From: Candidatus Berkelbacteria bacterium
Lineage (GTDB): Bacteria; Patescibacteriota; UBA1384; 2-12-FULL-50-11
Reading direction: 5' to 3'
NCBI GenBank assembly: GCA_016432625.1
Contig: CP066697.1
Coordinates: forward strand, 671,951-735,950
DNA length: 64,000 nt
Positions 11,308 to 17,775 of this stretch are shown one piece after another. How positions within the stretch are numbered: position 1 is the first letter of the stretch; each line of letters begins with the position of its first letter. The notes beneath the pieces are model-generated. The model did no database searches and was not told where the DNA came from. It saw only the letters and a list, made by a program, of their open reading frames with translations. The position numbers and the translations under genes were made by a program.

Positions 11308-11862
11308 TTGCCTAAAAAGCCTTACCGCGTTTTCTGTTACACTTTATGCAAGATGGTAATCGAGGCGAGTAGTATTATGGGCGCGCCGGTCGTGGACGTA
11401 ACCGGCCGTAAAGTTGGATCGGTTGATACGTGCGTTTACCGTTCCGACGAGGCGCGGCTTTTTGCCCTGCAAGTGGCGCGCGGCGCCGTAGTTTCTAAAT
11501 TTGGTGGGCTACTAATTGACAGTGTCTTATCTGTAGGAGCGAAGGGCGTCGTGATTGATTCGGCTGAAGAGATAACCAATGACCTTAAAAACCTCGACAA
11601 GATAGCTAAAGAATCTGGCCCTGTCGTCGGCGTCAACGCTGTGACCGAGTCTGGCAAACAGCTCGGCAAAGTTTTCGATCTCCTACTCGACGCCGACACC
11701 GGTTTTATTGTCCGTTTCTACTTACGGCGCCATATCTTAAACGAGCGAATCATCCCTCGCCAATTCCTAGTAAGCATCACGCCAAGACAGGTAGTTTTTC
11801 GCGATGTCGTCGATACTCCGGTCTTTGACCAGCTCGCCCAAACAGAGGCCACCCCGGCTTAA
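11308..11862 (+). CDS. PRC-barrel domain protein (two PRC-like repeats); likely true start at ATG 11374
   Basis: Two repeats resemble PRC barrels: 'GAPVVDVTGRKVGSVDTCVY' and 'VVGVNAVTESGKQLGKVFDLLLDADTGFIVRFYL'. A GAGG motif lies 12 nt before ATG 11374. Confidence 0.4.
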   Translation: MPKKPYRVFCYTLCKMVIEASSIMGAPVVDVTGRKVGSVDTCVYRSDEARLFALQVARGAVVSKFGGLLIDSVLSVGAKGVVIDSAEEITNDLKNLDKIAKESGPVVGVNAVTESGKQLGKVFDLLLDADTGFIVRFYLRRHILNERIIPRQFLVSITPRQVVFRDVVDTPVFDQLAQTEATPA

Positions 11863-12188
11863 TGGTTACGATCGAGGACTGGCAGAAACTAGACGTTCGT
11901 ATCGGCACGATTATTAGCGCCGAACTTGTGCCAGAGACCGATAAGCTGGTGAAATTCGAGATCGACCTGGGATCGGAGAAGCGGCAAATAGTTGGTGGTT
12001 TTGCCCCGAGTTACCCAGATCCAAAGGCGTTAATTGGCAAACAAGTGCCAGTGCTCTGCAACCTCGAGCCGAGGACTCTTCGCGGTCTTGAATCTAACGG
12101 CATGGTTCTCGCCGCTTCCACAACCGAAGGCGGCCCGGCGGCGCTTCACCCAGACCAGTTCGTAGCCAACGGTACCGTGGTTCGATAG
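11862..12188 (+). CDS. tRNA-binding protein (CsaA / Trbp111 / MetRS C-terminal-like OB-fold domain)
   Basis: 'WQKLDVRIGTIISAELVPETDKLVKFEIDLGSEKRQIVGGFA...LIGKQVPVLCNLEPRTLRGLESNGMVLAAS' matches the tRNA-binding EMAP/CsaA domain pattern. Confidence 0.75.
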   Translation: MVTIEDWQKLDVRIGTIISAELVPETDKLVKFEIDLGSEKRQIVGGFAPSYPDPKALIGKQVPVLCNLEPRTLRGLESNGMVLAASTTEGGPAALHPDQFVANGTVVR

Positions 12189-12268
12189 CGGCGATTTGTT
12201 GGGGTAATCTACTTGACCTGTCGGGGGTATTTCTCTAAACTATAGCTCTAGTCTCTCGGAGCAACCCT

Positions 12269-12520
12269 ATGAAAACAACGTACCTCAAAGGGGGTCAACC
12301 GAAAGCTAACGGAGCTGCAGTGACAACTCATCTCAGCAACGATCGGGAACTCAGACCGAATCGCGGTGGCTGGTACCGCACTATCTGTGGCCTAGCGGCC
12401 CGCGACGTCAGAGAAATCCCGCTCGAGGAAGCAAAAAGGAAGCTTTGCCAAGAGTGCCAAGAAGGATACCTGAGGTCTTCGGATCTCAAGGCACATATCC
12501 ATCCGTTTGTGATCGCCTGA
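12269..12520 (+). CDS. Hypothetical small protein (83 aa, Cys-containing)
   Basis: A GGAG motif lies 9 nt upstream. A Rho-independent terminator follows at 12582-12612. No recognisable domain. Confidence 0.35.
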   Translation: MKTTYLKGGQPKANGAAVTTHLSNDRELRPNRGGWYRTICGLAARDVREIPLEEAKRKLCQECQEGYLRSSDLKAHIHPFVIA

Positions 12521-12581
12521 TCCCGACCATTCTCGCTTCTCGCAAGGGAAGCCACGACCAACTTTCCGACACCTCCTGAAG

Positions 12582-12612
12582 CCCCGCCCTCACCGGCGGG
12601 GTCTTCTCTATA
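12582..12612 (+). terminator. Rho-independent terminator
   Basis: Stem ccccgcc / ggcgggg (7 bp), loop ctcacc, followed by TCTTCTCTAT. Confidence 0.5.
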
Positions 12613-12845
12613 AAGAGGCCCCCGCAGCCAGGTGCCGCGGGGGTTGAGGAGGAGGAAATGAGGGTCGGTTCGAGATGACCCGTCTGGTTACTTTCGCTTG
12701 GTGCTCGCCCGTCAACGTCTGGATCGACGTCGCAGGATCGACTTGTTACAGTCTACGCCTACTGTCAAGTTAGGTAAAATACGGCATTGATATGACTAGC
12801 CCGCCGGTGCATTGCAGCGGCGGGTAGCGGTTCGGCCAGGGCTTT

Positions 12846-13073
12846 TCAGCGCGTCTGGCATTTGATGATTCGGGTGTTGGCGAGCTCTTTAAGCAGCTTC
12901 TGCTTGTTAGCGCAGCCGCTCAAGCGTACTGCTTTGGCCTGGTTCTCCCTGGACCAGCCAGGGTTTCGGCGCAAAGTGTCGTAGAGCGCGGGGCACATCT
13001 GTTCCAGCGTCATACTGGAGCCGTTGGTGAATCGAAGTAGAACGTTCGTTGGTGCAGGGCTTTTAGAACCCAT
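12846..13073 (-). CDS. Hypothetical small protein (75 aa)
   Basis: A strong RBS (GGAGGGAGAGG) precedes the ATG. It has its own promoter (TTGACC-17-TAAACT) upstream and a hairpin downstream. GC-rich third codon positions. Confidence 0.4.
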   Translation of the reverse strand: MGSKSPAPTNVLLRFTNGSSMTLEQMCPALYDTLRRNPGWSRENQAKAVRLSGCANKQKLLKELANTRIIKCQTR

Positions 13074-13131
13074 ATCCTCTCCCTCCGTGTCGGACTATCC
13101 CTTGCCCTGATGGGCCAAGAAACGTGTTAAT

Positions 13132-13160
13132 AGTTTATTAGTAGACCTGTTAATGGTCAA
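13132..13160 (-). promoter_or_regulatory. Sigma70-like promoter for the 75-aa gene (-35 TTGACC, 17-nt spacer, -10 TAAACT) in an AT-rich patch
   Basis: Plus-strand 'agttta' at 13132-13137 and 'ggtcaa' at 13155-13160, with a 17-nt spacer. Local AT-rich sequence (gttaatagtttattagtagacctgttaatgg) stands out in an otherwise GC-rich genome. Confidence 0.35.
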
Positions 13161-13204
13161 GCGAATAATCGAAGTGAAGTGAGTAGGGTGCTAGTGGGTT
13201 GTCT

Positions 13205-13246
13205 AACACAGCAAAGCCCGCCCACGATCCGAAGATCGGGGGCGGG
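13205..13246 (-). terminator. Putative terminator hairpin downstream of the 117-aa gene
   Basis: Stem cccgccc (13217-13223) / gggcggg (13240-13246) with inner cgatc/gatcg pairing. The U-tract on the minus strand is weak. Confidence 0.35.
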
Positions 13247-13265
13247 TGATAGTCGTGTCCGCTCA

Positions 13266-13619
13266 CTACAGCGCGGCTAGCGCGCACTGGGTCGCGACGC
13301 ACTCGGCCCGACTTGTCCGCCGGCCGGCGGGGTGAGCCTTGCGGTACTCAGCGCAGAAGCGCCTAGCGTTCTTTGCGTGGACCTTGTTGCCACTTTCGAT
13401 CACGCCCATCAGGCCGTAATCGCCATGCGCTCGAGCGGTGAAATCCTCGCCGATCTGCCGTATCAACTCATACGGCGGCAACTGCTTGCCGGCCGGTTTG
13501 TCGGCGTCGAACCACCAGCCATCCAGGTCTCGCCGGATATGCACCCCAGGTGGTTTCTTACTGGTCAGCTCGGGTCCCTTGGGCCCGAGAACGATGAAGC
13601 TTAAGGAGCTAATTAGCAT
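13266..13619 (-). CDS. Hypothetical protein (117 aa), no recognisable domain
   Basis: High GC3 codon bias consistent with coding. An AGAGGTG RBS-like motif is present. The plus-strand ORFs overlapping it look spurious. Confidence 0.4.
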   Translation of the reverse strand: MLISSLSFIVLGPKGPELTSKKPPGVHIRRDLDGWWFDADKPAGKQLPPYELIRQIGEDFTARAHGDYGLMGVIESGNKVHAKNARRFCAEYRKAHPAGRRTSRAECVATQCALAAL

Positions 13620-13710
13620 CTCGCACCTCTACTGCCACGACTATACCCCGAAAGCAGCGGCAAACAAACGCCCGCCTTGGATTTCTCCTTGGCGGGCATT
13701 CGGTAACCGG

Positions 13711-14532
13711 TCAGACCGGGTCGATGCTGAAGAGCAGTGGCTCAATCGGGAAGAGCGCCTGATCGCCCTCCGTCAGATCGCGGTAAATCGCGGGGTTGAC
13801 GGCCAGTAGATCGAGATCCATGACGTCATACTGCCGATCTTTGCCGATATTGCTGACGATGCCACCGGCTTCGTGCACGAGCAGCGAGCCGGACGCGAAG
13901 TCCAGGTGCGTCCCCCAAGGCTGGTAGCAGATTCGCCCGTCGAGCTTGCCGGACGCCACCAGACCAAACTCGTAACCACAGTTCAGGGTGTGGTAGATCA
14001 TCGTTCGGTCGTGGATTCGGTAGTAGAACTCGCGGTTAGCGGCGTAATCGCGATCGCGACGTATCTCAACCGAGACGCACGAGCCATGAAGCGGCTGATC
14101 GCTAACATGGATACGCTCACCATTTCGGTAAGCGCCCCCGCCCCGCAGAGCCGTAAAGAGCTCGTGCGTGACGAAGTTGTAGATAACGCCGAGCGTTACC
14201 ACTCCGTTTTCGAGCAGCGCCAACATCGTGGTGGCGTGCGGAATGCCCTTCACGAAGTGGAAGGTGCCGTCGATTGGATCGGCCAGCCAGCGGCTGTCGC
14301 CGCTTCCGGCACGAGCTAAGCCAAACTCCTCACCCTCGAAACCAATCTCGGGATAAAGGCGCTCCAGCTCGGTATTGAGGAACTCTTCCGTTGAACGGTC
14401 GAGGTCGGTGACTAGGTCGTGGGGATTGCTCTTGCAACGGCTGTCACAACAGCCGAAGTTTTCTTTAAGCTTAATCCCAGCATGCGTTATGAGGCGGCAA
14501 GCCTCGTTCATCATTTCTCTATTTGCTTGCAT
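13711..14532 (-). CDS. Inositol monophosphatase family protein (IMPase/SuhB/CysQ-like)
   Basis: Signature 'WLADPIDGTFHFVKGIPHATTMLALLENG' matches the metal-binding WxxDPxDGT motif of the IMPase family. Confidence 0.8.
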   Translation of the reverse strand: MQANREMMNEACRLITHAGIKLKENFGCCDSRCKSNPHDLVTDLDRSTEEFLNTELERLYPEIGFEGEEFGLARAGSGDSRWLADPIDGTFHFVKGIPHATTMLALLENGVVTLGVIYNFVTHELFTALRGGGAYRNGERIHVSDQPLHGSCVSVEIRRDRDYAANREFYYRIHDRTMIYHTLNCGYEFGLVASGKLDGRICYQPWGTHLDFASGSLLVHEAGGIVSNIGKDRQYDVMDLDLLAVNPAIYRDLTEGDQALFPIEPLLFSIDPV

Positions 14533-14632: not shown

Positions 14633-15022
14633 CTATTCCGCTAGCTCGAACTCGAGAACCATAAACCTGGAGTCGTCTTCAATCGGCTTGCCGGTGTAGG
14701 CGTAGTAACCCTCGAAAATCCGGCGCTGATGTTCCTTGTCTTGGTAAGCCTCATGGCCAGGGGTATTTAACGGTAAGTCCTGAAAAGTAGTAAATGACTT
14801 GCCGGTCACGGTCGCTTTGCCGACAACTTCCTTAGTAACTGCGTTAGTAATAGTAACGACGTCTTCGAGTTGAAGATAGTCGTATTTGTAACCGAGGCGA
14901 TATGTCGTCGCCTTATGGCCGTCTTTAATAAACTGCACCAGTTCTGGTGCAAACGGCAGCGTGTATTTGTCTGCAATCGGTTCGTTGGCAATAATTGTTC
15001 CTTCGCTTGGCGCTTGAATCAT
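14633..15022 (-). CDS. Putative ASCH (PUA-like) domain protein; start placed at the internal ATG 15020-15022
   Basis: A perfect TATAAT lies on the minus strand (plus 15030-15035) 7 nt upstream of this ATG. The longer ORF to 15100 would run through the promoters. 'FIKDGHKATTYRLGY' resembles the ASCH GxKTxExR motif. Confidence 0.4.
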   Translation of the reverse strand: MIQAPSEGTIIANEPIADKYTLPFAPELVQFIKDGHKATTYRLGYKYDYLQLEDVVTITNAVTKEVVGKATVTGKSFTTFQDLPLNTPGHEAYQDKEHQRRIFEGYYAYTGKPIEDDSRFMVLEFELAE

Positions 15023-15029
15023 TTCTGAA

Positions 15030-15075
15030 ATTATACCCCTAATTGATTGATTTTTCAGGTTCGGTAGGATATAAT
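15030..15075. promoter_or_regulatory. Back-to-back divergent promoters, each with a perfect TATAAT -10 box
   Basis: The minus-strand TATAAT (plus 'attata' 15030-15035) lies 7 nt from ATG 15022, a leaderless-type arrangement. The plus-strand TATAAT at 15070-15075 is followed by a GGAGG RBS at 15091-15095 and ATG 15108. Confidence 0.45.
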
Positions 15076-15107
15076 CCACCGCAGAGTTTAGGAGGCTCAT
15101 TACAGTT

Positions 15108-15605
15108 ATGTTTTTCGTCCCGCTTCTGACGATTCTCGGTGGACGAGAGTTGATCTGCTATGTCGACTGCGACGTGAAGAAGCTCCGCGATAATCTTTCG
15201 GCAGATGTTGCCGTTGAGATGGTCGCCGAGTTCGCCGAGGGTTGGAGCTTCCACTCCACCGCAGGAGAGCAAGAGTTCGTCCCGGATGACACCGACTTTA
15301 TGATTGGGTTCCTATGGACGGACGAAGTCGACTTCTACGTCGACCTCTGGATACAACGACAGCTCGCAACCTATGGAGAATGCGGTCCAATGACGACTCT
15401 TCAGACTTTCCGCTTCAACGGCGAGATGGTCGACCCCTGGGAAAAGGGCAACGCTTGCGCCTGGACACGTATAGTATCTGGTCTCGAAGCACTGCACTTT
15501 CACCAGGTCGTTCGAGTTCACGGAGGGGACGTTAAGCACTACATCAACGGACCCCGGCCCGAGCTGCCAGAGAGCTTCATCGTCCCCTGGCCCGACCCGA
15601 GCTAA
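15108..15605 (+). CDS. Hypothetical protein (165 aa)
   Basis: A GGAGG RBS lies 12 nt upstream. A TATAAT promoter precedes it and a terminator follows at 15625-15657. The longer antisense ORF 15312-15833 is Ala/Arg-rich and judged spurious. Confidence 0.45.
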   Translation: MFFVPLLTILGGRELICYVDCDVKKLRDNLSADVAVEMVAEFAEGWSFHSTAGEQEFVPDDTDFMIGFLWTDEVDFYVDLWIQRQLATYGECGPMTTLQTFRFNGEMVDPWEKGNACAWTRIVSGLEALHFHQVVRVHGGDVKHYINGPRPELPESFIVPWPDPS

Positions 15606-15624
15606 AGACTGCTCAAAACCGAAT

Positions 15625-15657
15625 TGCTCCGCCCTAACCAGGCGGAGCTCTTCTTTA
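15625..15657 (+). terminator. Rho-independent terminator
   Basis: Stem gctccgcc / ggcggagc, loop ctaaccag, followed by TCTTCTTT. Confidence 0.55.
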
Positions 15658-15749
15658 CTCCGAAAACTGGCGAGCCATGCATCTGTTGCAACAGAACCAG
15701 CGAGCCAGTTTTCTCCACCCGCCTGGGGCAAGCGTGCTTGGGTGGGGAG

Positions 15750-15799
15750 TGCAGAGGGGTAGGGCAGCGCTTCGCAAGTAGCACCCCTACCCCTCTGCA
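15750..15799. repeat. 15-bp perfect inverted repeat with a 20-nt loop in the convergent intergenic region
   Basis: tgcagaggggtaggg (15750-15764), loop cagcgcttcgcaagtagcac, then ccctacccctctgca (15785-15799). A second stem-loop, ccaccc...gggtgg, lies just upstream at about 15714-15746. Confidence 0.5.
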
Positions 15800-15826
15800 A
15801 AACAAAAAAGCGCCTTGCGGCGCTTC
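15799..15826 (-). terminator. Rho-independent terminator of groEL
   Basis: On the minus strand: gcgccgcaaggcgc hairpin followed by TTTTTTGTTTT (plus-strand A-run 15801-15809 before the hairpin 15810-15823). Confidence 0.6.
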
Positions 15827-15847
15827 TCTGCATCTCTTGAAGAGATA

Positions 15848-17775
<1,928 letters not shown>

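What the first reader, a model, noticed from the sequence alone, without database searches (positions are those of the whole stretch)
12190..13710. Islet of three small orphan genes between conserved housekeeping genes
This 1.5-kb stretch has low ORF density and three short genes of 83, 75 and 117 aa. Each has its own RBS, promoter-like elements or hairpin terminator, and none has a recognisable domain. The stretch includes an AT-rich patch (13120-13160) in an otherwise GC-rich genome, plus tandem GC-rich hairpins at 12582-12645. This compositional and organisational contrast is typical of a small accessory insertion, possibly a toxin/antitoxin-like pair, phage remnant or defense mini-module.
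Basis: partly seen in the sequence, partly recalled or inferred. Interest (0 to 1): 0.5.

Follow-up and report, generated by a model that had tools for sequence, protein, structure and literature searches.

The report
Three small orphan genes, not an insertion
The stretch holds three separately transcribed genes for small, basic proteins of unknown function in an uncultured Berkelbacteria genome. It looks like ordinary lineage-specific gene content in a variable region downstream of groEL, not a mobile insertion, toxin-antitoxin pair, phage remnant or defence module.

Summary
The ORFs (83, 75 and 117 aa), their ribosome-binding sites, promoter-like sites and GC-rich hairpins are real. No domain is recognisable with Pfam, NCBIfam, PHROGs or PADLOC. 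The compositional argument fails. The window is about 53% GC, not GC-rich. The islet's tetranucleotide signature is average (z=0.12) and its GC is only mildly raised (56.9%, z=1.8). The "AT-rich patch" is the promoter of the 75-aa gene, and the "tandem hairpins" are back-to-back terminators of two convergent transcription units.

The 117-aa gene belongs to a tiny family of four sequences among about 15 billion proteins. In all three loci with DNA context it lies downstream of a YqfB-type ASCH gene. One relative shows the order groEL, ASCH, variable gene, hairpin, 117-family gene, so this gene is ancestral. The variable piece in that slot is the inositol monophosphatase gene. The 75-aa gene is truly coding (dN/dS 0.13 against its only homologue), and that homologue sits in a different neighbourhood without the 117-aa gene, so the two are not an obligate pair. 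The 83-aa ORF is a singleton with a weak C2H2-like motif.

There are no integrase, flanking repeats, tRNA, or phage or plasmid matches. Function is unresolved; small nucleic-acid-binding regulators is my best guess. Interest is low.

The parts
11862..12188 (+). Flanking gene: tRNA-binding-domain (CsaA/Trbp111-like) protein, last gene of the PRC-barrel/CsaA pair. No terminator follows it, so transcription can read into the 83-aa gene.
   Evidence: Pfam tRNA_bind 2.5e-24; NCBIfam hits are below the equivalog cut-offs; its ATG overlaps the stop of the PRC-barrel ORF.
12213..12241 (+). Promoter-like site TTGACC-N17-TAAACT(AT) in front of the 83-aa ORF.
   Evidence: It is one of only two matches to this pattern in 64 kb; the other is the 75-aa promoter.
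12269..12520 (+). 83-aa ORF, a singleton. It is basic (pI 9.4), and residues 56-78 resemble a single C2H2-type zinc finger (C-x2-C-x3-Y-x5-L-x2-H-x-H). Coding status is plausible but unproven.
   Evidence: Only a self-hit among 5.8 billion clusters. GGAG lies 7 nt before the ATG. Dicodon score is -0.007, the best of the frames tested there but only the 1st percentile of real genes. Weak zinc-finger hits: Pfam E 0.0027; PDB E 0.0084, with 18 of 22 hits being C2H2 fingers.
12581..12602 (+). Intrinsic terminator of the rightward unit (PRC-barrel, CsaA, 83-aa gene).
   Evidence: 8-bp stem, 7 GC pairs, T-rich tail; -20.9 kcal/mol, z -4.6.
12619..12643 (-). Intrinsic terminator of the leftward unit. 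Together with 12581-12602 it forms the 'tandem hairpins', a convergent terminator pair.
   Evidence: 10-bp stem, 9 GC pairs; -26.1 kcal/mol, z -3.8.
12644..12799 (.). 156-nt spacer of unknown role between two minus-strand hairpins. It could be the 3' UTR of the 75-aa mRNA or a small RNA with an unpaired CCUCCUCCUC tract just before the terminator. On the + strand the same bases read GAGGAGGAGGAAATG, followed by 6-aa and 32-aa mini-ORFs.
   Evidence: Sequence; fold (z -3.9, CU-rich tract unpaired); mini-ORFs, with poor dicodon scores; no Rfam match. No homologue is available for a test.
12800..12828 (-). Hairpin directly after the 75-aa gene. Its stem is conserved in the L008 homologue, but here it lacks a good U-tail, so read-through to 12619-12643 is likely.
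   Evidence: -21.4 kcal/mol.
12846..13073 (-). 75-aa gene: a real protein-coding gene. The product is very basic (pI 10.4), has three conserved Cys, and is predicted to form three helices.
   Evidence: Homologue P0005 is 78% identical. dN/dS is 0.13, with differences by codon position of 13/13/32. AF2 pLDDT 63, helices 23-36, 42-52 and 57-66. No PDB fold or sequence match.
13132..13160 (-). Promoter of the 75-aa gene, TTGACC-N17-TAAACT(AT).
   Evidence: Both hexamers are conserved in L008.
13215..13246 (-). Terminator of the 117-aa gene: CCCGCCC stem, GAUC-UUCG-GAUC apical stem-loop, then a U-rich tail.
   Evidence: -24.1 kcal/mol. 84% identical over 38 nt to the hairpin after the L169 homologue.
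13266..13619 (-). 117-aa gene, member of a four-sequence family. It has a conserved alpha/beta domain (residues 1-95) and a disordered tail ending in a Cys motif (C..C[SA]L).
13624..13667 (-). Weak promoter-like site (TTGTTT-16-TATAGT) and RBS GAGGTG of the 117-aa gene.
   Evidence: Read. The -10 (TATAGT/TATATT/TATCGT) and GAGGT are conserved in L169 and L171. It scores 8 of 12, below the threshold of the scan tool.
13670..13697 (-). Two-tier hairpin GCCCGCC-AA-GGA-GAAA-UCC-AA-GGCGGGC with a U-tail. It terminates the IMPase gene, and it is a conserved anchor in front of the 117-family gene in relatives.
   Evidence: -26.2 kcal/mol, z -5.2. Identical 28-mer in L008. Homologous hairpins in L169 and L171, with one compensatory C-G to U-A change.
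13711..14532 (-). Inositol-monophosphatase-family gene. It fills the variable slot between ASCH and the hairpin.
   Evidence: Pfam Inositol_P 4.5e-44. The slot is empty in L169/L170 and holds a 171-aa gene in L171. Dicodon usage is native-like.
14633..15100 (-). YqfB-type ASCH-domain gene, a conserved upstream neighbour of the 117-aa family.
   Evidence: Pfam ASCH 18.3 bits, below the cut-off of 21.2. tblastn to the L169/L170 and L171 ASCH genes gave E about 6e-8 and 2e-6. Alignment A5.

Best explanation
The stretch is the meeting point of two convergent transcription units in the genome of an uncultured Candidatus Berkelbacteria bacterium (candidate phyla radiation, CPR). It carries three independently expressed, monocistronic genes for small, basic, cytoplasmic proteins.

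Organisation (shown):
- The rightward unit is PRC-barrel, CsaA-like, then the 83-aa gene, ending at the terminator 12581-12602.
- The leftward series is ASCH, IMPase, hairpin, the 117-aa gene, hairpin, the 75-aa gene, hairpin, a spacer, then the terminator 12643-12619.
- The 117-aa gene is an old resident. Its family lies downstream of a YqfB-type ASCH gene in every locus available, and downstream of groEL in one relative. Its upstream terminator, -10 box, RBS and downstream terminator are all conserved.
- Gene content between these anchors turns over: IMPase here, a 171-aa gene in L171, nothing in L169.
- The 75-aa gene is a conserved promoter-ORF-terminator unit under purifying selection that also exists elsewhere without the 117-aa gene.
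- The 83-aa ORF is a species-specific singleton.

Function (inferred, low confidence): all three products are basic (pI 9.4-10.4) and hydrophilic, and I saw no hydrophobic N-terminal signal or membrane segment. I take them to be small nucleic-acid-binding or regulatory proteins. The 75-aa protein would be a three-helix DNA- or RNA-binding protein. The 83-aa protein would bind through a single Cys2-His2-like zinc knuckle, and it shares the TTGACC-N17-TAAACTAT promoter with the 75-aa gene. The 117-aa protein would be a fast-evolving alpha/beta domain with a Cys-containing tail, possibly working in the RNA or nucleoside context of its ASCH neighbour.
For: Source and orphan status.

Organisation: ORFs, promoters and terminators.

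117-aa family and its context:
- Profile search of 1.84 billion representatives found only P0002, P0006 and P0007.
- Contexts are L169/L170 (ASCH, hairpin, 119 aa, hairpin, tRNA) and L171 (GroEL 3' end, 245 aa, ASCH, 171 aa, hairpin, 122 aa).
- The regulatory DNA is conserved.
- The ASCH genes of L169 and L171 are 81% identical, but the adjacent family members only 43%.

75-aa gene: dN/dS 0.13; promoter, RBS and terminator conserved in L008; different neighbours there.

Not foreign by composition: tetranucleotide z=0.12.

No mobile-element hallmarks.

Basic proteins. Zinc-finger-like motif. Structure models.
Against: - No function is demonstrated for any of the three proteins. Nucleic-acid binding rests only on charge, size, a low-confidence helical model (pLDDT 63) and sub-threshold zinc-finger hits whose second His spacing (H-x-H) is non-canonical.
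- The 83-aa ORF has no homologue, and its dicodon score is borderline (about 4% of non-coding frames score higher), so it may not be a gene.
- The 75-aa and 83-aa genes have atypical dicodon usage. The 117-aa gene is +3 sd in GC, so some horizontal history is not excluded.
- In L008 the 75-aa gene lies near a tmRNA-like gene and an Xre-type regulator, which could hint at mobility.
- Synteny rests on three short contigs from unidentified organisms.
- ASCH adjacency may reflect common descent only. The genes are separated by a strong terminator.
Confidence: 0.6

Rival explanations
1. Accessory insertion or remnant of a mobile element or prophage that landed between CsaA and IMPase.
For: - The genes are orphans.
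- The 75-aa and 83-aa genes have atypical dicodon usage, and the 117-aa gene is 62% GC against 53%.
- The 75-aa homologue sits in a non-syntenic contig, about 2 kb from a tmRNA-like gene and beside an Xre-type HTH gene.
- The region is rich in small self-contained units.
Against: - Tetranucleotide signature is average (z=0.12).
- No flanking direct repeats.
- No tRNA or tmRNA in the 64 kb.
- No PHROG, IMG/VR, INPHARED or PLSDB similarity.
- The 117-aa gene keeps its place relative to groEL and ASCH in a relative.
- The gene that is actually variable at that slot is IMPase, which has native-like codon usage.
Confidence: 0.15
2. A toxin-antitoxin-like pair or a small anti-phage defence module.
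For: The products are small and basic, the genes are adjacent, and no function is known. That is the only support.
Against: - Each gene has its own promoter and terminator. The 117-aa and 75-aa genes are 192 nt apart with a -24 kcal/mol terminator between them. The 83-aa and 75-aa genes are convergent.
- The families occur separately: the 117-family without the 75-aa gene in L169 and L171, and the 75-aa gene without the 117-family in L008.
- No PADLOC or Pfam toxin or antitoxin domain.
Confidence: 0.04
3. One or more of the ORFs, especially the 83-aa one, are not genes. The stretch would then be mostly non-coding DNA with terminators, perhaps with a small RNA at 12644-12799.
For: - The 83-aa ORF has no homologue among 5.8 billion clusters, and its dicodon score is at the 1st percentile of true genes.
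- The 156-nt spacer is structured and ends in a terminator preceded by an unpaired CCUCCUCC tract.
Against: - The 75-aa and 117-aa ORFs are clearly coding (dN/dS 0.13; homologues at E 1e-26 with conserved start and RBS).
- The 83-aa ORF has a promoter identical in its hexamers to that of the 75-aa gene, an SD, a terminator, and a far better dicodon score than the overlapping antisense ORF.
- No Rfam match for any small RNA.
Confidence: 0.15
4. The 117-aa family is a precursor-like protein, with a large leader domain and a short Cys-rich C-terminal core in the manner of NHLP/Nif11-type RiPP precursors, or else a metal- or redox-active tail protein.
For: A well-conserved N-terminal ~95 residues, a variable linker, then a conserved C-terminal Cys motif (C-x2/3-C-x4-C-S-L in P0006 and P0007; C-x4-C-A-L here) in a tail predicted to be disordered.
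Against: - None of the neighbouring ORFs scanned at any of the loci matched a maturation-enzyme or any other relevant family.
- No NCBIfam or Pfam hit to NHLP or Nif11 leaders.
- No GG-type cleavage motif is visible.
- There are only four sequences.
Confidence: 0.05

Closest known systems
Lineage-specific small hypothetical (ORFan) genes of CPR/Patescibacteria genomes
   Same: The products are short, have no recognisable domain and a very narrow distribution (1, 2 and 4 sequences among about 15 billion proteins). The neighbours are also largely unannotatable.
   Different: Two of the three are shown to be real genes, and their promoters and terminators are conserved. One has a stable genomic address relative to groEL and ASCH.
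YqfB-type ASCH-domain proteins (N4-acetylcytidine amidohydrolase; PMC6972931, PMC9599836)
   Same: The conserved upstream neighbour of the 117-aa family is a ~108-155-aa ASCH protein. Read by eye against the E. coli YqfB sequence (my own knowledge), it shows the K-[TA]-[ST]-T-x-R and G-H-E motifs.
   Different: The 117-aa protein itself has no ASCH similarity. A strong terminator, and in two of three loci an extra gene, separates the two genes, so co-transcription is unlikely and functional coupling is unproven.
Type II toxin-antitoxin operons
   Same: Two small adjacent genes on one strand (117 aa and 75 aa).
   Different: They are not an operon, they do not co-occur in relatives, and they have no toxin or antitoxin domains.
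Integron gene-cassette arrays (attC hairpins)
   Same: A series of short genes, each followed by an imperfect GC-rich hairpin, with gene content differing between relatives while the hairpins persist.
   Different: The hairpins carry U-tails and behave as intrinsic terminators. Each gene has its own promoter. No integron integrase appears among the neighbours that could be identified. The L008 junction does not fit hairpin-to-hairpin recombination.
Classical C2H2 zinc fingers and the prokaryotic Ros/MucR finger
   Same: Residues 60-78 of the 83-aa ORF read C-x2-C-x3-Y-x5-L-x2-H. They draw weak hits to many eukaryotic C2H2 fingers.
   Different: The second His is at H-x-H rather than H-x3-5-H. 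All scores are below family thresholds. There is a single finger and no Ros/MucR similarity.

Membership tests
Type II toxin-antitoxin system | Two adjacent genes co-transcribed as one operon, with overlapping or closely spaced ORFs | tested here: not met
   There is a 192-nt gap containing a -24 kcal/mol terminator and a separate promoter between the 117-aa and 75-aa genes. The 83-aa gene is convergent.
Type II toxin-antitoxin system | The two partners co-occur across genomes | tested here: not met
   L169 and L171 have the 117-family without the 75-aa gene. L008 has the 75-aa gene without the 117-family.
Type II toxin-antitoxin system | A recognisable toxin or antitoxin domain | tested here: not met
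   No Pfam, NCBIfam or PADLOC hit.
Prophage remnant / integrative element | An integrase or recombinase, or phage structural or replication genes | tested here: not met
   No ORF scanned between 7.2 and 21 kb matched a recombinase or phage family. Those with a match are a T2SSF-family gene (PilC-like), PRC-barrel, CsaA-like, IMPase, ASCH and tRNA-synt_1b; GroEL was recognised by 58-67% tblastn identity to GroEL genes; the rest have no hit. No PHROG hit for the three ORFs. The remaining ORFs of the window were not scanned.
Prophage remnant / integrative element | Flanking direct repeats (att) and a tRNA or tmRNA target | tested here: not met
   Only chance-level repeats of 13-20 nt. There are 0 tRNA or tmRNA genes in 64 kb.
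Prophage remnant / integrative element | Foreign oligonucleotide composition | tested here: not met
   Tetranucleotide distance z=0.12; GC z=1.8. Only the 117-aa gene itself is about +3 sd in GC.
Anti-phage defence system (PADLOC catalogue) | A match to a known defence protein model | tested here: not met
   0 families at E<=1 for all three ORFs and two neighbours.
Integron cassette array | An IntI integrase with attI, and promoterless cassettes ending in attC | tested here: not met
   The cassette-like units have their own promoters. The hairpins have U-tails typical of terminators. No integrase among the neighbours that could be identified. The attC R/L-box consensus was not formally scanned.
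Classical C2H2 zinc finger (83-aa ORF) | C-x2-4-C-x12-H-x3-5-H with conserved hydrophobic positions, scoring above the family threshold | tested here: not met
   C-x2-C-x12-H and the Y/L hydrophobic positions are present, but the last spacing is H-x-H. The best Pfam score is 17.8 bits against a cut-off of 27. The best PDB E-value is 0.0084. Zinc binding cannot be tested here.
Rho-independent (intrinsic) terminators | A stable GC-rich stem-loop followed by a U-rich tract, downstream of a stop codon on the coding strand | tested here: met
   12581-12602(+), 12643-12619(-), 13246-13215(-) and 13697-13670(-) all meet it. 12828-12800(-) has the stem but a poor U-tract.
NHLP/Nif11-type RiPP precursor (117-aa protein) | Leader homology to NHLP or Nif11, and adjacent maturation enzymes | tested here: not met
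   No NCBIfam or Pfam match. None of the neighbouring ORFs scanned at the loci matched a maturase family.

The most novel reading that the evidence does not exclude
The 117-aa family may be a previously undescribed, rapidly evolving protein fold specific to Berkelbacteria-like bacteria that works together with the neighbouring YqfB-type ASCH enzyme, for example as a substrate-presenting partner or regulator in N4-acetylcytidine or nucleoside salvage. Separately, the conserved GCCCGCC-type terminator hairpins that bracket it may act as fixed anchors, with self-contained promoter-ORF-terminator units (IMPase, the 171-aa gene, the 75-aa gene) exchanged between them. That would be an integrase-independent, cassette-like mode of gene turnover in reduced CPR genomes.
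Probability: 0.08. Interest if true: 0.55.

Novelty: new member of a known kind. Interest (0 to 1): 0.22.

Why it matters
It matters little as an 'island', because there is no evidence for a mobile, toxin-antitoxin or defence element. Three modest points remain:
- It defines a tiny new protein family (117 aa, four sequences) with a confidently predicted domain that matches no solved structure and keeps a fixed genomic address next to an ASCH gene.
- It shows that a 75-aa ORFan is under strong purifying selection together with its promoter and terminator.
- It illustrates how the region downstream of groEL in these reduced genomes turns over by whole promoter-gene-terminator units, while the terminator hairpins stay conserved.

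It is also a caution for scans of this kind: here a low-density stretch rich in hairpins turned out to be a junction of convergent monocistronic units, not foreign DNA.

Tried and rejected
- **Domain and family searches.** Pfam, NCBIfam, PHROGs and PADLOC on the three proteins and on family alignments gave nothing above threshold.
- **Phage and plasmid searches.** IMG/VR scans with the single proteins and with alignments were negative. INPHARED and PLSDB searches by DNA, and INPHARED by protein, gave no match.
- **RNA searches.** Rfam at gathering and at permissive thresholds gave only chance-level hits in the window. ARAGORN found no tRNA.
- **Synteny via CsaA.** The scan of GTDB species genomes found a best identity of 56% (Omnitrophota), with no close relative and no IMPase nearby.
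- **Synteny via GroEL.** The scan of JGI metagenomes found a best identity of 67% and no shared neighbours.
- **Hairpin search.** The exact 28-nt hairpin was absent from JGI metagenomes.
- **Fold searches.** No significant match for the 75-aa model or the 117-aa model. The AFDB library was unavailable.
- **Hairpin covariation.** One compensatory pair among four sequences gives no statistical power.
- **Hairpin-to-hairpin recombination as the cause of the L008 indel.** Rejected, because L008 keeps only 15 nt between hairpin 1 and the -35 box, not the sequence downstream of hairpin 2.
- **RHH (CopG-like) reading of the 75-aa protein.** Considered from the sequence, but it is not supported by Pfam and only loosely by the model.
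- **Strain variation.** The contigs from four samples are 100% identical, so there is no presence/absence information.
Full report
**Source and setting**

The three ORFs match NCBI proteins HZB70_03435, HZB70_03430 and HZB70_03425 of a Candidatus Berkelbacteria MAG, on a 768,791-bp contig. Identical DNA occurs in four sequencing runs, with no variant. The window averages about 53% GC. Forty reference genes give 53.2 +/- 2.8% GC and 62 +/- 6% GC3, so the genome is not GC-rich.

**Checking the observation**

Coding density is 55%. Each ORF has an SD-like sequence.

A promoter-like TTGACC-N17-TAAACT precedes the 83-aa and 75-aa genes. These are the only two matches in 64 kb, although 6 of 100 shuffles also gave two or more matches.

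The hairpins are real and stable, at -21 to -26 kcal/mol. Four of the five CCCGCC...GGCGGG hairpins in the window lie in this stretch, against 0.25 expected. Five of 43 strong-hairpin clusters fall in these 1.5 kb.

The 'tandem hairpins' at 12582-12645 are a plus-strand and a minus-strand intrinsic terminator placed back to back. They mark the junction of two convergent transcription units. One runs PRC-barrel, CsaA-like, 83 aa. The other runs ASCH, IMPase, 117 aa, 75 aa in the opposite direction.

**Composition**

- The tetranucleotide distance of the islet from the window is average: z=0.12, and 39% of 1.5-kb windows are at least as far.
- GC is 56.9% (z=1.8).
- Only the 117-aa gene is clearly GC-rich (62%, GC3 75%), like the neighbouring IMPase gene (58%, GC3 71%).
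- In a leave-one-out dicodon model, IMPase, ASCH and the 165-aa gene score as typical host genes. The 117-aa gene is at the 13th percentile. The 75-aa and 83-aa ORFs are at the 1st-2nd percentile, yet each scores above the antisense ORFs tested at its locus.

**Are they genes, and who else has them?**

- *83-aa ORF.* It has no relative among 5.8 billion protein clusters.
- *75-aa ORF.* It has one relative, P0005, 78% identical, on a 4.7-kb contig (L008). The pair gives dN 0.16, dS 1.28 and dN/dS 0.13, with differences by codon position of 13/13/32. It is therefore a real gene under purifying selection. The -35 box, the -10 box, the RBS and the terminator stem are also conserved.
- *117-aa ORF.* It has P0002 (83% identical, a soil read assembly). 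A full HMMER profile search of 1.84 billion representatives adds P0006 (119 aa) and P0007 (122 aa) at E 4.5e-27 and 2.3e-26. They are 46% and 43% identical to the window protein. The only other two matches (E about 2e-4) fall in repeat proteins and look spurious.

**Context in relatives: the key result**

- P0006 lies in L169/L170 in the order ASCH (108 aa), hairpin, 119-aa gene, hairpin, tRNA.
- P0007 lies in L171 in the order GroEL C-terminus, 245-aa gene, ASCH (108 aa), 171-aa gene, hairpin, 122-aa gene, hairpin.
- The left end of L171 matches the window's groEL 3' end and terminator at 82% over 79 nt.
- Read on the minus strand, the window runs groEL, (165-aa gene on the opposite strand), ASCH, IMPase, hairpin, 117-aa gene, hairpin, 75-aa gene.

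The three anchors, groEL, ASCH and the 117-family gene, therefore keep their order and orientation. The 117-aa gene is resident, not inserted. The slot between ASCH and the hairpin is what varies: IMPase here, a 171-aa gene in L171, nothing in L169.

The upstream hairpin, the -10 box (TATAGT/TATATT/TATCGT), the RBS GAGGT and the downstream hairpin are all conserved. The downstream hairpin keeps its UUCG loop in the window and in L169. One stem pair shows a compensatory C-G to U-A change, but four sequences give no statistical power.

The ASCH genes of L169 and L171 are 81% identical, while the adjacent 119-aa and 122-aa proteins are only 43% identical. The family evolves fast.

L008 tells a different story for the 75-aa gene. 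There the identical 28-nt hairpin (window 13697-13670) lies 15 nt upstream of the 75-aa promoter, with no 117-family gene between them. The other neighbours are unrelated to the window: an Xre-type HTH, a 238-aa membrane protein, a lipoprotein, a tmRNA-like gene and a hammerhead-like motif. The 75-aa and 117-aa genes are thus not an obligate pair. The window and L008 differ by an indel of about 520 bp (13138-13658) that holds the 117-aa unit.

The broader synteny tests were uninformative. The nearest CsaA homologues are 56% identical and the nearest GroEL homologues are 67% identical. None of these 160 loci shares the neighbourhood, and none of the 80 CsaA loci carries an IMPase. CsaA and IMPase are therefore not a conserved flanking pair.

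**What the proteins look like**

All three are basic (pI 9.4, 10.4 and 9.5) and hydrophilic.

- *75-aa protein.* The model has pLDDT 63 with three helices, and there is no match.
- *83-aa ORF.* Residues 56-78 draw weak but repeated hits to classical C2H2 fingers: Pfam E 0.0027, PDB E 0.0084, and 18 of 22 PDB hits are zinc fingers. The terminal H-x-H spacing is non-canonical.

**Mobile, toxin-antitoxin and defence readings**

I found no tRNA or tmRNA in the window, no flanking repeats and no PHROG or PADLOC hits. There are no IMG/VR, INPHARED or PLSDB matches. No neighbouring ORF that was scanned matched a recombinase family. The monocistronic layout and the separate occurrence of the families argue against a toxin-antitoxin pair.

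**Interpretation**

Shown:
- The layout is a convergent junction of monocistronic small-gene units.
- The 117-aa gene is ancestral and keeps its address near ASCH and groEL.
- The 75-aa gene is a conserved, self-contained unit.
- Composition is not foreign.

Inferred, with low confidence: the products are small nucleic-acid-binding or regulatory proteins, and the 117-aa family may relate functionally to its YqfB-type ASCH neighbour. ASCH proteins of this type are N4-acetylcytidine amidohydrolases (PMC6972931, PMC9599836).

Unexplained: the 156-nt spacer at 12644-12799. On the minus strand it ends in an unpaired CCUCCUCC tract before a terminator. On the plus strand the same bases read as a strong SD with mini-ORFs.

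**Verdict**

This is ordinary lineage-specific small genes in a variable region of a CPR genome. The insertion, toxin-antitoxin, phage and defence interpretation is not supported. Interest is low, with a minor by-product: a tiny new protein family with an unmatched predicted fold.

Noticed in passing
window 48300-52700: This is the most compositionally deviant part of the window: 58-60% GC, GC3 69-78%, tetranucleotide z up to 4.0. It is a four-gene nucleotide-sugar cluster, with a UDP-glucose/GDP-mannose-type dehydrogenase, a GFO/IDH/MocA oxidoreductase, a hexapeptide acyltransferase and a DegT/DnrJ aminotransferase, next to a GT2 glycosyltransferase. From my own knowledge it resembles a WbpABDE-type diacetamido-sugar pathway, and it is a better candidate for horizontal acquisition than the islet.
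   Followed up: partly
L008 1024-1159: A 136-nt tmRNA-like gene (Rfam RF00023, 68 bits, E about 2e-25). It has an intact acceptor stem, T-arm and CCA end, but only 45 nt where the model has 276. That is a tRNA-like domain without the mRNA-like region or pseudoknots. ARAGORN does not call it. It could be a minimal or degenerate ssrA, or a remnant of an island junction.
   Followed up: partly
L008 1654-1710: A hammerhead type III-like motif with an intact CUGANGA...CGAAAC core (35.8 bits, below the gathering score of 48.5; E 4e-5). It lies in the intergenic DNA about 12 nt upstream of a 105-aa ORF that starts at 1723.
   Followed up: no
window 12644-12799: A structured 156-nt spacer between two minus-strand hairpins. 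On the minus strand an unpaired CCUCCUCCUC (anti-SD-like) tract sits just before the terminator 12643-12619. On the plus strand the same bases read GAGGAGGAGGAAATG, followed by coupled 6-aa and 32-aa mini-ORFs. A perfect TTGACA lies at 12770-12765 (-), but it has no good -10 box.
   Followed up: partly
window 15750-15850 and L171 28-90: The groEL terminator region (ATCTC..GAGAT, then AGCGCC-loop-GGCGCT-T6) is about 85% identical between the window and L171, although their ASCH proteins are only about 30-34% identical. In the window a second, perfect 15-nt inverted repeat follows at 15750-15799. The 50.7-kb Logan contig ends inside it, at 15760.
   Followed up: partly
window 15108-15605 (+) versus 15312-15833 (-): Two overlapping ORFs lie between ASCH and groEL. 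The dicodon score favours the 165-aa plus-strand ORF (0.217, typical of host genes) over the 173-aa minus-strand ORF (-0.054). Both are orphans without a Pfam hit.
   Followed up: partly
window 14633-15100: The ASCH ORF as listed (155 aa) has a 46-residue N-terminal extension relative to the 108-aa ASCH proteins of L169 and L171. The true start may be further downstream.
   Followed up: no
window 12578-12600 (ends of L003 and L006): Short-read contigs from independent samples break at the convergent GC-rich hairpins. This is probably an assembly effect of the palindromes rather than biological variation.
   Followed up: no
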